Source: the human T2T-CHM13v2.0 reference genome, Homo sapiens. From it: 64,000 nt of DNA. The notes beneath the pieces are model-generated. The model was not told the DNA's origin. It was given only the letters and a program-made list of their open reading frames with translations, and did no database searches. The DNA is taken from assembly GCF_009914755.1 (NCBI RefSeq), contig NC_060932.1; one strand, given 5' to 3'. A program made the translations under genes and the position numbers. Of this stretch, positions 10,383 to 60,960 are shown piece after piece (positions within the stretch are counted from its first letter, which is position 1; the number at the start of each line of letters is the position of its first letter).

Positions 10383-10651
10383 TTGGAAACATTACTAATA
10401 GTTCTAAAGGCCAAAGCTATCTATACAACTAGATGCTCAAAGAAATGTTGCTCTCTTCTCATCCCCACTAACCTATTCCACTTCCTGTCTTCTATTCCAA
10501 CCCTTTTTATCCACCCTCTGTAAGTAACCACTCCTTCATTTCTGGCTTTTTCTTCCTGTATTTCTTTTGCATAATGAGCTGATAGTGGTGTGTTTTCTTA
10601 TATTCCTTTCTTACATGAAGTGTAGCTTACAATAGATACTCTGAATTTTAC

Positions 10652-17702: not shown

Positions 17703-18561
17703 CTGAAACAGAAAAAAGTGGGGATGTATTAAATAACAGAGTATGTTATTAACAAAACTGGAAAAGTTACTTAGCAATTCAATTTGCCACGCTAATTTGT
17801 TTATGGCTGAATGAGAGCTTGTGTTTCATGGCTGACAGACAAGTTTATTATTCTGTGACCCCACTGACTGATAGTGGTGGAAAGGAGAGCCAACTGTTAC
17901 TAGAAAGATGCCATATAAGCCCCAGATGGCTCACTAAGTAGACTGTTTTCTAAAAATACACTTTAAACTTTGAATTTCATTTACGGAGCACACACATTTA
18001 TATAAGCTTGTCTGGGAGGGGAGCTAACATTTATTGAATATCTGCATTTGCCAATTCTTTTGCAAATATATATTTTAATTCTCACCATAATCTTAAAAGG
18101 AAAATATTTTAATTCCCAAATTTTACTGATCAGAAAGCAGTGTGCTCACAATACCTTCACAAGACATTTCCTGTCTATAAGTAAAATGTTCCAGGAAACA
18201 TGCTTTAAATCTTTATTTAATAGAAATTTGCATATGGAAATTCTACTCATTTGCCATTTTTCTAGATAAAAAGCTATAGCTTAATAGAATAAATCTCTTA
18301 AGTTTTTCTTTATCTCACAACAGGGCACATTTTGAGATGGTATTTACATGGCAATATAAGACTCTTGAATAACACAATCTTAAAATTGGCTACACACAGT
18401 ATGATTATGTTTTCCATATAAAAAAGCTAATCAAGTAGGATTGCTGTAAACTATGTCAACACGTAACATGAAGAGCTGTATGATTTTTAAGAGTTATTTT
18501 ACACAGGAAGGGCAGTGACACATTCTGCCTAAAATCACTTGAGGAAACACACATATTTATT

Positions 18562-18965: not shown

Positions 18966-19065
18966 AGTCATTTTTAAAAGGTCAGCATTTGGGTCCTTTG
19001 CCTCCCTATGCATACATATATCACACAGTCTCAAAGTGAATATACTTACTCTGTGCCCGTGAGTC

Positions 19066-19087
19066 TTATAAGCAGCTTTTCCTGGCC
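19066..19087 (-). CDS. TP53INP1: TP53INP1 cassette exon coding part, beta isoform C-terminus (R)ARKSCL*; full exon 19050-19087
   Basis: Acceptor catttgtag|GGCCAGGAAAAGCTGCTTATAA and donor CAGA|GTAAGT at 19050/19049; 473+22=495 nt = 164 aa. Confidence 0.92.
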
Positions 19088-21660: not shown

Positions 21661-22070
21661 TAATTATAAATTCTTGAGTGGCATTCCTCAGAGGTAAAAT
21701 CATAATCAGAAGGGAAGAATTTTCAAGAAATGAATCTGAAGCAACTCTAAAGCAATTAAATCAATAGCAACTCCACAAAGTTATATTTTAAATTTTTGTT
21801 GGAATGCCTGAAACACCTCTTAATAAACTTGTAGCACTGAATAAAGTGCCAGTTAAAGTAACATTCCCCACCCATGACCTTACCTAGGATATAGCCTGGC
21901 ATCATGTAACATAAGAAAGTTGTTTTCATTTTGGTACAAGCAAAATGAAATATGTTTAGCCTCATAAAAAATCATCTACAATATTGAGACTTGAGAGTAT
22001 GGCAAACTCTGGTAAAGTTAATAAATTAATGTGCTGCCTAGGGTTTGTTTATATCTGGAAAACAGGAAAC

Positions 22071-22184: not shown

Positions 22185-25368
<3,184 letters not shown>

Positions 25369-26151
25369 TGTGATACTGTAAAATATATATTCGGTCTTGT
25401 CAGTCTCCTGGCATACAACTCCTAAAATCCTTGGAACCTCCAATGTGGAAAGCGTATGCTAATTAGTTGACTGGTGGTTGGCAGCAACTAGGCAGCTTCA
25501 GGATGGGATGTGGTCACTATAAAGACCAAGTTACAGTTGGGACTTTTAGCCCCACCCCTCAAACTCCAGAGAGGGGAGAGGGTCTGAAGGTTAAGCCAAT
25601 CACCAATGGCCAATGATTTAATCAATTATGCCTATGTACTGATGCCTCCATAAGACCCCAATAGTACTGAGTTCAGGGAGCCTCTGGAGAGCTGAACATG
25701 TGGAGGTTCCCGGAGGGTGGGGTGCACAGAGGGCATGGGCCTTGCCTTATGCATCCCTTCATCTGTATCCTTTTTAATAAACTGGTAAACATGTTCCCCC
25801 AAGTTCTATAAGATGCTCTAGCAAATTAATCAAACCCAAGGAAGGGGTCATGGGAACACCAGTTTACAGCTGGTTGGTCAGAAGCATAAGTAAAACCTGG
25901 GGCTTGAGATTGGCATCAGAAATGGGAGGCAGTCTTTTGGGACTAAGCCTTTAACCTATGGGATCTGATGCCATCTCGAGGTAGACAGTGTCAGAATTGA
26001 ATTGAATCAGAGGACACTAGAGGGTGTCCACTGCTGGAGGACTGTTTGCTTGGTGTGTGGAAAAAACCCACACATCTGGTGTCAGAAGCACTGGGTGACT
26101 GTGCAGTGTGAGTATTGCAGGAAGAAACTGAGTTTGTTAAATTCTCAGACA
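25369..26151 (+). mobile_element. MER21-like LTR (3' LTR of the element above)
   Basis: Purine-rich PPT gaagactgaggctggac followed by TGTGATACTG...ctcctaaaatccttgg; CCAAT x3 at ~25595-25615; AATAAA at 25776-25781; ends ...CA. Confidence 0.75.
25787..25806. promoter_or_regulatory. p53 response element AAACATGTTC CCCCAAGTTC (minus strand GAACTTGGGG GAACATGTTT)
   Basis: One perfect RRRCWWGYYY half-site plus an adjacent half-site with an intact CWWG core and no spacer. Matches my recollection of the reported intronic TP53INP1 p53 site. Confidence 0.8.
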
Positions 26152-26409
26152 AGGTTTTCAAGGTTACATCATTTGATGAGATGTAGCTAGAAATACTTGG
26201 AAGAAAATAAATTTTAAGACATGATATTCTAGTTGAATTTGATACCCTAAATAATCCAGTCTATAAAGTCAGAGTTATGTTCTAAGATACTTAACAGAAA
26301 TGCCAGTCTTATTTCTAATCAGTAGCAGAATTTTGTAAATGAGAATGCTATTATATAACTGGGGCCATGCTACATCTAACTTTCTTAAAAAAATCTAAAA
26401 TGAACAAGT

Positions 26410-26860: not shown

Positions 26861-27221
26861 CTGGGACTACTTGGGCTATGTAATTCATCAGTCCCACGGG
26901 TGGCCTCACTGAGACCAGGGCAGGAGTTATGCACAGCATAGACAGACATGCTGGGATGTTCAATGAGAAGGTTTTCCATAGGACTTGTTTCCACCTTGAT
27001 AGTGGTTAATCCACCTGCAGTAAAACATGGGGGTGGGGTGATAAACCAGCTCTCCTCCATTGGACATGACTCAAACTGGAGAAAGCAGGAATCACTTGTA
27101 TCAGCCAAGCACTCAAGAGATGCCGGTAAACAGGAAAAGACTGAAGGGTGCTCAGTAGGTGACTCTTCACTGATGTCCTCCTCTTCTTCTTCTTCTTCTG
27201 CTGAGAAACCAGTGCAAGTAT
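26861..27221 (-). CDS. TP53INP1: TP53INP1 coding exon 3 (361 nt; acidic/PEST region and DOR-family motif ESWFITPPPCF)
   Basis: Acceptor ctag|ATACTTGC continues the phase-1 codon G|AT (Asp); donor CCAG|GTACGT (phase 2); open throughout. Confidence 0.97.
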
Positions 27222-35479: not shown

Positions 35480-37150
35480 CGAAGACTGAGTTCAAGCCAG
35501 GTCAAGCAAGGGACAGGCCGCGGACAGGCGGGGGCCGGTGGCCGGGTCACGGAGCAGGTTCCCCATAGCCGCAGGGCCTCCGGAACTCGGAGGGCAGGCG
35601 CAGGGGACGGGATCGCAGGGCGGGGACAGAGCGCCGGGCCACAAGCCCAAGCGCCGCTGTCTTCGGAGATGCGTCCCGGGGGTGGCCGCGGGAGCCCCGA
35701 CGCCGAGTCCCGAAGGGGCGGCCCCATCCAACGGCCGAGAGCAGGCGGAGGAGGAGGAGTGGAGGGGAGTGAGGAGGGGTGAGAGGAGGAGGTCCCGCCG
35801 CGGCCAAGAAAACAAGCCACGCTCGGGGGAGGAGGCAGAGACCAAACTCCCAACCGCCGCCCAGCGCCGGGGCCAGGCCGGGCCCTTGTCCGCGCCGCCG
35901 CCGCCTCTGTCAGCCTCTGTCCGCGCCCTGGGCCCCGGGGGCCGCCGAGGACCGACCCACTGGGTGGGCGGCCGGGCCCGGCGGCGGCGAGGGGAGGCAG
36001 CGAGGGGGCTCGGTGAACGCGCAACCGGCGCCCCGAAGGCAGGGCGCGCGGCCGGCCCCGCCGGGCTCAGGAGCGGGCAGCGCTGCGGCCCCAACCGGCA
36101 GCGAGGCGGCCCTGGACGGACGCCCGCCCGCCCCCCCCCCGGCACTTACGTGGGCCCGGGCCGTGCGGGGCTGCGCGGGGAAGGGAGCGGCCGCCGGCTC
36201 GGCGGGGAAGGACGCGGGCGGGGCGGAACTGCTGAGGTAGCTGCGGTGGGGCCGGGCTGCGCTGCACCTCGTTCAGGTACCCAGACGGCAGGCGCGGGGC
36301 CGGCTCCAGCCCTCGGGTCGCTGCGCCCAGGCCGGCCAGTCCAAGTCCTTTTGTTGTTGTGCAGCGCTCGCAACAGCTGATCGGCCGCTCCGCTCGCCGT
36401 CGGGCCCCGCTGCCCCGCCCCGGGCCGCGCCAGGCCGGGCCCCACCAATCGGCGGTGCGGGGGCCCCGGGGCCGCCCTGCGAGAGGTTGTCACCAACGCA
36501 CGTGACCTGGCGCCCGGCCGGCGGCGCGCTCAGCTCCGAAACAAGCCCGGGCAACAAAAACCGGGAGCTGAGCGTGAAGGCCTGGGCGAGCGGAAGGGTG
36601 GGAGAGAGGGGCTAGGCCGGGGAGGGAAGCGCTGGGGCCGGGGCCGGCTTTCCAGGAGCCGGCGGGAGCGGGGTGCGTAAGAGGCGGGCGAGGAAGAACC
36701 GGCGGGCAACGGGAAGGGCAGAGGTGGATCTCTCCCTCAGCGACCCCTCTCGCCGAGTGAAGGGTCGAGGGTTTGGGGCACAAAGGGCGCAGAACGTTTT
36801 TTCCTGTGAGAGGAACATTAAGACTCCTGGGAGGGCTGGGGCTAACGCCTCCGAGAGCCCCACCTGGTCAGCCTAGGGTTAGACGTGTAGCCAGGGTGCT
36901 GGGAGGGGGCCGCTGCTGGGCCCCAGATAGAGGGGTAGAGGCCGCTCAATCACGGAGCCAGGCCCCACCTGCTGTAGAAACCGCCACCGAGAGCCGGCCG
37001 GGCTTGCTGCACGCTCTGGATTCCGCCTGCCTATAGGCGAGGCACAAGGGACTGCGAGACCAGGCCTGAAGGCAGAGAGGTCAGCAGGCTCGGGGGCCTC
37101 TGCTCCAGCGGACAACAAGCGCACCGGGCGGGAACGGCCGCCTCCCCAGG
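35480..37150. promoter_or_regulatory. CpG island / TP53INP1 promoter
   Basis: Very GC- and CpG-dense. GC box ccccgccc at ~36413-36420, CCAAT at 36445-36449, E-box CACGTG at 36499-36504. Confidence 0.93.
36150..36378 (-). other. TP53INP1: TP53INP1 exon 1 (non-coding 5'UTR); 5' end (TSS) approximate
   Basis: Donor CAC|GTAAGT on the minus strand (GT at 36149-36148) inside the CpG island, downstream of GC/CCAAT/E-box elements. No ATG in this exon. Confidence 0.8.

Positions 37151-49029: not shown

Positions 49030-50190
<1,161 letters not shown>

Positions 50191-51103: not shown

Positions 51104-51842
<739 letters not shown>

Positions 51843-58641: not shown

Positions 58642-60960
<2,319 letters not shown>

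What the first reader, a model, noticed from the sequence alone, without database searches (positions are those of the whole stretch)
25369..26151. p53 response element of TP53INP1 lies inside an endogenous-retrovirus LTR
Seen: the best p53 site I found in the gene (25787-25806, AAACATGTTC CCCCAAGTTC, no spacer) sits 5 bp after the AATAAA of a MER21-like LTR, ~10.5 kb into the gene. Known: TP53INP1 is a direct p53 target, and ERV LTRs can supply p53 sites (best known for LTR10 and MER61). Inference: p53 inducibility here is partly wired by an exapted LTR from a family not usually cited as a p53 carrier. The CATG core may have arisen by CpG deamination of CGTG/CACG, which would make the site copy- or lineage-specific.
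Basis: partly seen in the sequence, partly recalled or inferred. Interest (0 to 1): 0.75.

Follow-up and report, generated by a model that had tools for sequence, protein, structure and literature searches.

The report
Known p53 site in old LTR
The p53 switch inside the TP53INP1 gene does lie in the end-piece of a retrovirus remnant roughly 70-90 million years old, but this was published in 2011, so the finding is correct and ordinary.

Summary
The 20-mer AAACATGTTC|CCCCAAGTTC is at 25787-25806, 5 b after an AATAAA. It lies in a real, old dispersed repeat: 3406 first-look candidates, and all 40 scored hits were 66-76% identical.

It is already in print. Cui et al. 2011 (PMC3032802, Table 1 row 19) list the reverse complement of this 20-mer as the functional TP53INP1 p53 element inside MER21B, LTR/ERVL. 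Veprintsev & Fersht 2008 list its p53 affinity.

I add three points:
- **Not a solo LTR.** It is the 3' LTR of a 5'-truncated provirus remnant, about 22467-26151.
- **Age.** Copy divergence gives about 63-114 Myr. This fits the printed Euarchontoglires range.
- **Copy-specific site.** Only 1 of 68 copies carries the full site. The second core does not show this pattern.

The motif alone is no better than chance. p53 ChIP signal over the LTR could not be checked, and print reports p53 binding at the promoter.

The parts
22467..24192 (+). Internal remnant of the provirus, piece upstream of a nested masked repeat.
   Evidence: dispersed repeat with 199 and 247 first-look candidates and hits 67-81% identical. 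In one search no hit starts before query 281, which is window 22467. 21668-22068 is unique. Hits are colinear at the same other loci as.
24193..24475 (.). Nested 283-b masked repeat. It is Alu-sized, but I did not type its family.
   Evidence: RefSeq soft-mask table.
24476..25368 (+). Internal remnant of the provirus, the piece that abuts the 3' LTR.
   Evidence: 157 and 94 first-look candidates, hits 71-82% identical; 22 of 39 non-self hits run across the junction into the LTR, so the same juxtaposition exists at 22 or more other loci, for example the chrX copy L002.
25369..26151 (+). 3' LTR, MER21B by print. It is antisense to TP53INP1 and sense to NDUFAF6. The true 3' end is 26149-26151.
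   Evidence: There is no second copy in the 64-kb window. CpG count is 4 observed against 41 expected from base composition.
25776..25781 (+). AATAAA poly(A) signal of the LTR, shared by the family.
   Evidence: AATAAA at the aligned place in 19 of 34 copies (set 1, window copy included) and 24 of 34 (set 2).
25787..25806 (.). p53 response element, two decamers with no spacer. It is the published p53DINP1/TP53INP1 site.
   Evidence: Half-site 1 (25787-25796) is perfect. Half-site 2 (25797-25806) has its core intact and 3 mismatches in the purine positions.
26144..26149 (+). CTCAGA, the LTR's terminal motif.
   Evidence: the same or a one-off motif ends L003, L026, L028, L001 and L024, and is directly followed there by a 5-b target-site duplication.

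Best explanation
The region is the 3' LTR of a 5'-truncated endogenous-retrovirus remnant of the MER21 group. Print names the LTR MERB21B's family as MER21B. The remnant spans about 22467-26151 on the + strand. It entered what is now the TP53INP1 intron, antisense to the gene, roughly 70-90 million years ago, in the Euarchontoglires stem. Just past the LTR's poly(A) signal lies a 20-b p53 response element with no spacer. This is the long-published p53DINP1 site. A p53 tetramer binds it, and it most likely acts as an intronic enhancer about 10.6 kb downstream of the promoter, adding to p53 induction of TP53INP1.

The virus did not bring the site in ready-made. The short-form copies of the family carry a near-site at this place. 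The window's copy differs from most of them by transitions, one of them at a CpG that yields the CATG core.

Shown here: the sequence, the repeat's reality, its bounds, its age and the copy-specificity of the site. Taken from print: the family name, in-vitro p53 binding and listing as a functional element. Inferred: the enhancer action and its share of the induction.
For: - **Identity with the published site and family.** (Cui 2011 Table 1 row 19: MER21B, LTR/ERVL, spacer 0; their reference is Okamura 2001).
- **In-vitro binding.** (Veprintsev & Fersht 2008 table): the p53DINP1 20-mer has listed logKd -6.78 and predicted -6.25. It is mid-range among the sites tabulated; the p21 5' site is -7.14 and Bax B is -6.24.
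- **TP53INP1 as a p53 target.** It was found in 10 of the genome-wide sets counted in Fischer 2017 Table 1. It is among 86 targets common to mouse and human in Fischer 2019.
- **Repeat is real and old.**. For 34 copies the mean pairwise K2P distance is 0.343. Star-tree branches average 0.172, and the window copy's branch is 0.157. At recalled rates of 1.5-2.5e-9 per site per year this gives 63-114 Myr.
- **Printed range.** MER21B is Euarchontoglires-specific per Dfam, as quoted in PMC12129452. It was active between the dog split and the human-mouse split (PMC1857806).
- **3' LTR of a truncated provirus.**
- **Site arose after insertion.**: the full site is in 1 of 68 copies and a perfect half-site in 9 of 68. 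Short-form core 1 is CATG 9, CGTG 6, TGTG 6, other 7 of 28. Core 2 is TGAG in 45 of 68 and CAAG in 3 of 68.
Against: - A 17-of-20 match with both cores intact is expected about 0.8 times per gene of this size by chance. The sequence by itself proves nothing.
- I found no passage that places a p53 ChIP-seq summit on the LTR.
- The one paper that places p53 ChIP-seq binding here puts it within 900 b of the shared TP53INP1/PTSL promoter, in 11 of 17 data sets (PMC10173889). A perfect half-site lies there at 36539-36548.
- RefSeq lists no functional element over the LTR.
- Okamura 2001 is not held. Its binding and reporter data are known to me only through citing papers and recall.
- Both copy samples were picked as the best matches to the window's own copy, which may inflate CATG counts.
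- Short-form copies are not closer to each other than to long-form ones: 0.353 against 0.344. The short form may therefore have arisen more than once.
Confidence: 0.8

Rival explanations
1. The LTR site binds p53 in the test tube but adds little in cells. On this reading, p53 induction of TP53INP1 runs mainly through promoter-proximal binding.
For: - PMC10173889 (passages read) reports p53 binding within 900 b upstream of the PTSL start in 11 of 17 ChIP-seq sets. PTSL shares its promoter with TP53INP1.
- A perfect half-site AAACAAGCCC lies at 36539-36548, followed by a degenerate second half.
- Fischer 2017 (passage) states that binding within 2.5 kb of the start correlates best with activation.
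- The LTR motif is no better than chance, and its second half-site has CCC in the purine positions.
Against: - The promoter motif is weaker than the LTR motif on the same count: 4 mismatches with one core broken, against 3 mismatches with both cores intact.
- The LTR 20-mer has a listed affinity in the range of accepted sites and is on the curated list of functional elements used by Cui 2011.
- The two readings are not exclusive.
Confidence: 0.3
2. The p53 site came in ready-made with the LTR's progenitor, as proposed for the LTR10/MER61-type families. On this reading MER21B would be a general p53 carrier.
For: Nine of 68 copies have a perfect half-site at this place, and most short-form copies are a few transitions from a full site. 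Cui 2011 recounts the progenitor model for ERV LTRs.
Against: - The full site (both cores, at most 3 mismatches, no spacer) occurs in 1 of 68 copies, the window's own.
- Core 2 reads TGAG in 45 of 68 copies.
- 33 of 68 copies carry 4-10 extra bases inside what would be half-site 1.
Confidence: 0.03
3. The 20-mer is a chance motif with no role in cells. On this reading its place on lists of functional elements rests only on early reporter and gel-shift work.
For: Searches show the chance expectation. I found no ChIP placement in print. RefSeq lists no functional element there.
Against: - Affinity is listed for the site.
- It was curated as functional.
- The gene is a reproducible direct target.
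- It is the only spacer-0 site with intact cores in the gene.
Confidence: 0.1

Closest known systems
The TP53INP1 (p53DINP1) p53 response element as listed in MER21B by Cui, Sirotin & Zhurkin 2011 (Biol Direct 6:2), citing Okamura et al. 2001
   Same: It is the identical 20-mer (reverse complement of 25787-25806) with spacer 0, and the same repeat family and class call.
   Different: Nothing of substance differs. This report adds that the LTR is the 3' LTR of a truncated provirus, an age estimate, and counts showing that the site is specific to this copy.
p53 sites carried by primate ERV1 LTRs (the LTR10/MER61 type; the Haussler group's model as recounted in Cui 2011; family names partly recalled)
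   Same: In both cases an ERV LTR supplies a p53 site to a host gene.
   Different: In those families the site is held to have been present in the progenitor and so occurs in many copies (passage). Here it is in 1 of 68 copies. This family is also older (Euarchontoglires), and RepeatMasker calls it ERVL rather than ERV1.
p53 sites made in Alu elements by CpG methylation and deamination (Zemojtel et al. 2009, as recounted in Cui 2011)
   Same: A CG in the family corresponds to CA/TG in the CATG core of the site. For half-site 1 of short-form copies the counts are CGTG 6, CATG 9 and TGTG 6 of 28.
   Different: The carrier is an LTR, not an Alu. The second core (CAAG here, TGAG in 45 of 68 copies, and no copy with CG at that dinucleotide) does not fit a CpG origin.
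MER21C-derived first exon and promoter of GPR1-AS/Liz (eLife 2025, PMC12129452)
   Same: An old MER21-group LTR was taken over for host gene control in Euarchontoglires.
   Different: There the LTR acts as a promoter for a transcript. Here it carries a transcription-factor site inside an intron.

Membership tests
MER21B LTR | Assignment by RepeatMasker or CENSOR against the family model | not testable with these tools
   No Dfam or RepeatMasker is available here. In print, Cui 2011 Table 1 row 19 gives MER21B, LTR/ERVL, as a single agreed call.
MER21B LTR | Full-length similarity to many dispersed copies, with a shared sharp 5' end | tested here: met
   3406 candidates, and the 40 scored hits are 66-76% identical, many spanning query 1 to about 720; 16 of 39 hits start at query 176-185; 12 of 23 copies share the window's first seven bases.
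MER21B LTR | LTR signals: a poly(A) signal shared by the family | tested here: met
   AATAAA in 19 of 34 and 24 of 34 copies. The TATAAA at 25518-25523 is in 1 of 34 copies only, so I do not take it as the family's TATA box.
MER21B LTR | Age and range: Euarchontoglires | tested here: inconclusive
   One search gives 63-114 Myr from copy divergence at recalled rates. This is compatible (print). No other mammalian genome is on hand to test orthology.
ERVL (class III) as against ERV1 (class I) | Length of target-site duplication (5 b for ERVL and 4 b for ERV1; this rule is recalled, not from a call) | tested here: inconclusive
   6 of 23 copies have at least 4 of 5 matching bases directly after the ...CAGA end (L016 has 5 of 5). 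I noticed the motif anchor by eye after the run. With floating offsets, at least 4 of 5 bases match in 16 of 24 true pairs against 30% of control pairs. This fits 5 b. Print disagrees on class: RepeatMasker says ERVL, while the Repbase table in Kojima 2018 lists MER21I with MER21A-C among ERV1. Settling this needs the inner genes, so I stopped.
Solo LTR | Host DNA and a target-site duplication on both sides | tested here: not met
   The upstream flank is the repeat's internal part. There is no duplication at the window copy: 0 of 5 or 2 of 5 bases match.
Functional p53 response element | Two RRRCWWGYYY decamers with a spacer of 0-13 b | tested here: met
   17 of 20 positions match, both CWWG cores are intact, and the spacer is 0. 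This is not above chance.
Functional p53 response element | p53 binds the DNA in vitro | not testable with these tools
   In print: logKd -6.78 is listed for this 20-mer.
Functional p53 response element | p53 occupies it in cells (ChIP) and it confers p53-dependent activation | not testable with these tools
   Okamura 2001 is not held. I found no passage placing a ChIP summit on it. Supplementary tables of ChIP-seq papers, which may hold this, are closed.
Progenitor-borne LTR p53 site (LTR10/MER61 type) | The site is present in most copies of the family | tested here: not met
   1 of 68.
CpG-deamination-made p53 site | CG in family copies where the site has CA or TG in a core | tested here: met
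   Core 1 meets the test (CGTG 6, CATG 9, TGTG 6 of 28 short-form copies). Core 2 does not (TGAG 45, CAAG 3 of 68, and no CG at that dinucleotide).

The most novel reading that the evidence does not exclude
The p53 element of TP53INP1 was put together after insertion. The starting point was a near-site that short-form MER21B copies carry just past their poly(A) signal, and the changes were a few transitions, one of them a CpG decay. The intronic p53 input would then be younger than the roughly 70-90-Myr-old insertion, and possibly limited to part of the Euarchontoglires. Other lineages, such as the mouse, where the gene is also a direct target, would rely on a different site. I found no main-text statement of this origin; it may be in the closed supplements of Cui 2011.
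Probability: 0.4. Interest if true: 0.3.

Novelty: already known. Interest (0 to 1): 0.15.

Why it matters
It is a clean textbook case of a retrovirus remnant supplying a working control site to a tumour-suppressor pathway gene. It differs from the better-known LTR10/MER61 cases because here the site was made by later mutation of the LTR, not carried in by the virus. The core fact (p53 element of TP53INP1 inside MER21B) has been in print since 2011, so the finding opens no new question. What stays open is when the site became complete, and how much of the induction runs through it rather than through the promoter.

Tried and rejected
**Solo LTR.** This was my first reading, after one search found no second LTR in the window. 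I rejected it when one search showed the upstream flank to be repeated and one search showed 22 of 39 hits crossing the junction.

**TATA box at 25518-25523.** Rejected as a family feature: it is present in 1 of 34 copies.

**CpG origin of the second core.** Rejected. TG outnumbers CA 45 to 3, and no copy has CG at that dinucleotide.

**Subfamily split between short and long forms.** There is no signal. Mean K2P is 0.353 within short, 0.336 within long and 0.344 between them. The breakpoints of the 8-b difference are ambiguous by one base. The six TGTG copies favour a CG start over a CA start.

**Target-site duplication at the window's copy.** None was found. None is expected for a 3' LTR of a truncated provirus.

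**Literature.**
- Horvath 2007 (PMC1934401) does not mention the gene.
- Jegga 2008 and Okamura 2001 are not held.
- PMC3652520, PMC6292694, PMC4033189, PMC8287911, PMC6147888 and PMC2632907 say nothing on where p53 binds.
- Fischer 2019 marks conserved sites in bold, which the text copy does not show.
- The 20-mer occurs in 4 held papers only.
- For every paper I saw passages found by 'find'. I read none in full.

**Rows dropped before counts.**
- From (40 non-self hits) I fetched 37. I left out the two pieces of one split copy on chr11 and one partial copy on chr13.
- From (39 non-self hits) I fetched 34. Four were already in hand, and one did not reach the site.
- Four twins from segmental duplications (L013, L019, L022, L031) were dropped from all counts.
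- For the duplication test I used 23 of the 37 copies. The other 14 were twins or incomplete at one end.

Full report
**1. The observation**

One search shows AATAAA at 25776-25781, then five bases, then AAACATGTTC (25787-25796) and CCCCAAGTTC (25797-25806) with no spacer. The first decamer fits RRRCWWGYYY perfectly. The second keeps its CAAG core and its pyrimidines but has CCC where purines belong. The site is 10,568-10,587 b from the TP53INP1 start (36374, minus strand). It lies in the intron between exons 26861-27221 and 19050-19087.

On a simple count there are four spacer-0 sites in the 64 kb with both cores intact and at most 3 mismatches. Only this one is in the gene; the other three look Alu-like. 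The motif is not above chance:
- Matches with at most 3 mismatches: 17, against 25.8 +/- 4.8 in shuffles.
- Strict criterion: 4, against 2.1 +/- 1.5 in first-order Markov simulations, or 0.78 expected per gene span.

The weight of the finding therefore rests on outside evidence, not on the motif.

**2. The repeat is real**

The 783 b found 3406 first-look candidates in the same genome. The 40 scored non-self hits are 66-76% identical, and many cover query 1 to about 720.
- **5' edge.** The edge at 25369 is sharp. In a query across it, 16 of 39 non-self hits begin at query 176-185, where 180 equals 25369. Twelve of 23 copies start with the window's own first seven bases.
- **3' edge.** The edge is 26149-26151. 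Several copies end in a ...CAGA motif like 26144-26149, and 26152-26375 is unique in the genome.
- **CpG decay.** The LTR has 4 CpG against 41 expected from base composition.
- **Masking.** The RefSeq soft-mask table shows no masked stretch of 100 b or more between 24475 and 26376, and no RefSeq functional element lies on the LTR.

**3. It is already in print**

Cui, Sirotin & Zhurkin 2011 (PMC3032802; passages read) list 24 functional p53 elements that lie in repeats. Row 19 of their Table 1 reads: TP53INP1, GAACTTGGGG GAACATGTTT, spacer 0, MER21B, LTR/ERVL. They cite Okamura et al. 2001 for it. That 20-mer is the reverse complement of 25787-25806.

Their list derives from the Riley et al. 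2008 collection of functional elements. Each element was extended by 250 b and run through RepeatMasker and CENSOR. Veprintsev & Fersht 2008 (PMC2275157) tabulate the same 20-mer as 'p53DINP1', with logKd -6.78 taken from their reference 29 and -6.25 predicted. The 20-mer occurs in four held papers in all.

TP53INP1 was a target in 10 of the genome-wide sets counted in Fischer 2017. It is one of 86 direct targets common to mouse and human in Fischer 2019.

**4. The LTR is not solo**

- The 224 b downstream are unique.
- The upstream DNA is repeated: 24780-25368 (157 candidates), 24476-24800 (94), 23400-24192 (199) and 22467-23410 (247).
- In one search no hit begins before query 281, which is window 22467.
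- 21668-22068 is unique.
- The hits are colinear at the same other loci. Twenty-two of 39 hits to a junction query run from this upstream repeat straight into the LTR. One of them is the chrX copy whose LTR I hold as L002.
- No second LTR lies in the window.

The element is therefore a 5'-truncated provirus remnant of about 3.7 kb (22467-26151, + strand). It is antisense to TP53INP1 and sense to the long NDUFAF6 intron.

I did not list frames, translate or fetch copies of the internal part. It could hold an envelope or pol remnant, and the notes bar that route.

**5. Family and class**

The name MER21B comes from print. Kojima 2018 pairs MER21A-C with the internal model MER21I/MER21-int, but places them in the ERV1 part of its table. 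RepeatMasker says ERVL.

From LTRs alone I could test the target-site duplication. With floating offsets, at least 4 of 5 bases match in 16 of 24 true pairs against 30% of mismatched control pairs. Five of five match in 3 of 24 against 1.4%. In six of 23 copies the match sits directly after the ...CAGA end; I noticed that anchor by eye after the run. A 5-b duplication fits ERVL by a rule I recall but did not verify. Settling the class needs the inner genes, so I stop there.

**6. Age**

I compared 34 copies after dropping four segmental-duplication twins.

| Measure | Value |
|---|---|
| Mean raw pairwise difference | 0.268 |
| Mean pairwise K2P distance | 0.343 |
| Mean star-tree branch | 0.172 |
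| Window copy's branch | 0.157 |
| Age at 2.2e-9 per site per year | 71-78 Myr |
| Age at 1.5-2.5e-9 per site per year | 63-114 Myr |

The rates are recalled. The copies were the best matches to this copy, so the sample is biased. Print agrees: Dfam gives MER21B as Euarchontoglires-specific, with 2894 human and 1535 mouse copies, as quoted in PMC12129452. Lunter 2007 finds it active between the dog split and the human-mouse split. No other mammalian genome is on hand, so I could not test orthology of this insertion.

**7. Origin of the site**

I compared 68 copies, the window's included. The stretch from the bases after the poly(A) signal to the end of the site comes in several lengths:

| Length relative to the window copy | Copies (of 68) |
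|---|---|
| Same length ('short form') | 28 |
| 4-5 b longer | 15 |
| 8-10 b longer | 18 |
| Other | 7 |

The extra bases fall inside what would be half-site 1.
- **Core 1.** In the 28 short-form copies it reads CATG 9, CGTG 6, TGTG 6, other 7.
- **Core 2.** It reads TGAG in 45 of 68 copies, TAAG in 4 and CAAG in 3 (the window, L018 and L067). No copy has CG at that dinucleotide, so a CpG origin is not supported there.
- **Whole site.** A perfect half-site is present in 9 of 68 copies. The full site is present in 1 of 68, the window's own.

The site is therefore specific to this copy and arose after insertion. This differs from the progenitor-borne model recounted for ERV LTRs in Cui 2011. It resembles the CpG model described there for Alu. 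Short-form copies are not nearer to each other than to long-form ones, so the length forms may have arisen more than once. The AATAAA is a family feature (19 of 34 and 24 of 34 copies). The TATAAA at 25518-25523 is not (1 of 34).

**8. How it most likely works, and what speaks against**

The best reading is an intronic p53-bound enhancer about 10.6 kb from the promoter. Evidence against, or limiting it:
- I found no passage that places a ChIP-seq summit on the LTR.
- PMC10173889 reports p53 binding within 900 b upstream of the PTSL start, which shares the TP53INP1 promoter, in 11 of 17 sets.
- A perfect half-site lies at 36539-36548 with a degenerate partner.

The share of induction that runs through the LTR is therefore open.

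**9. Verdict**

The additions here are the truncated-provirus context, the age, and the counts showing a post-insertion, partly CpG-driven origin of the site. They are minor and may partly be in the closed supplements of Cui 2011.

Noticed in passing
window 36539-36558: AAACAAGCCC|GGGCAACAAA: a perfect p53 half-site with a degenerate partner. It lies in the bidirectional TP53INP1 / NDUFAF6-alternative (PTSL) promoter, where PMC10173889 reports p53 ChIP-seq binding in 11 of 17 sets.
   Followed up: partly
window 49430-49449, 51283-51302, 59760-59779: Three spacer-0 p53-like sites with both cores intact and 3 mismatches each. Their sequences look Alu-like. They lie outside TP53INP1, in the NDUFAF6 intron.
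   Followed up: no
window 17815-17846: Two p53 half-sites with one mismatch in all and a 12-b spacer, 113 b from the last exon of TP53INP1.
   Followed up: no
window 22467-26151: The RefSeq soft-mask table shows no masked stretch of 100 b or more in this 3.7-kb retrovirus remnant except the nested 283-b repeat at 24193-24475. An unmasked stretch in that table is therefore not evidence of unique DNA.
   Followed up: yes
L001-L071, columns aligned to window 25790-25791: Copies of the family differ by about 0, 4 or 8 extra bases (a TAAG-like unit) just after the poly(A) signal. The groups do not differ in overall distance, so slippage may have recurred.
   Followed up: partly
L067 (G000:C17:10093230-10093426): This copy has the same second half-site as the window's copy but still reads CGTG in the first core.
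   Followed up: no
L011/L013/L019 (chr1 121.1, 142.96, 148.92 Mb); L018/L022 (chrX 102.53, 102.37 Mb); L030/L031 (chr3 132.8 Mb, chr21 30.8 Mb): These LTR copies are 99%, 93.5% and 94.9% identical within each group, far closer than the family's roughly 73%. They were probably carried along by later segmental duplications, one of them between chromosomes.
   Followed up: no
L057 (G000:C8:96190313-96190529): Another copy of the same LTR family lies about 126 kb from the window's copy on chromosome 8.
   Followed up: no
window 25518-25523: The TATAAA in the LTR is found at that aligned place in this copy only (1 of 34), so it is not the family's TATA box.
   Followed up: yes
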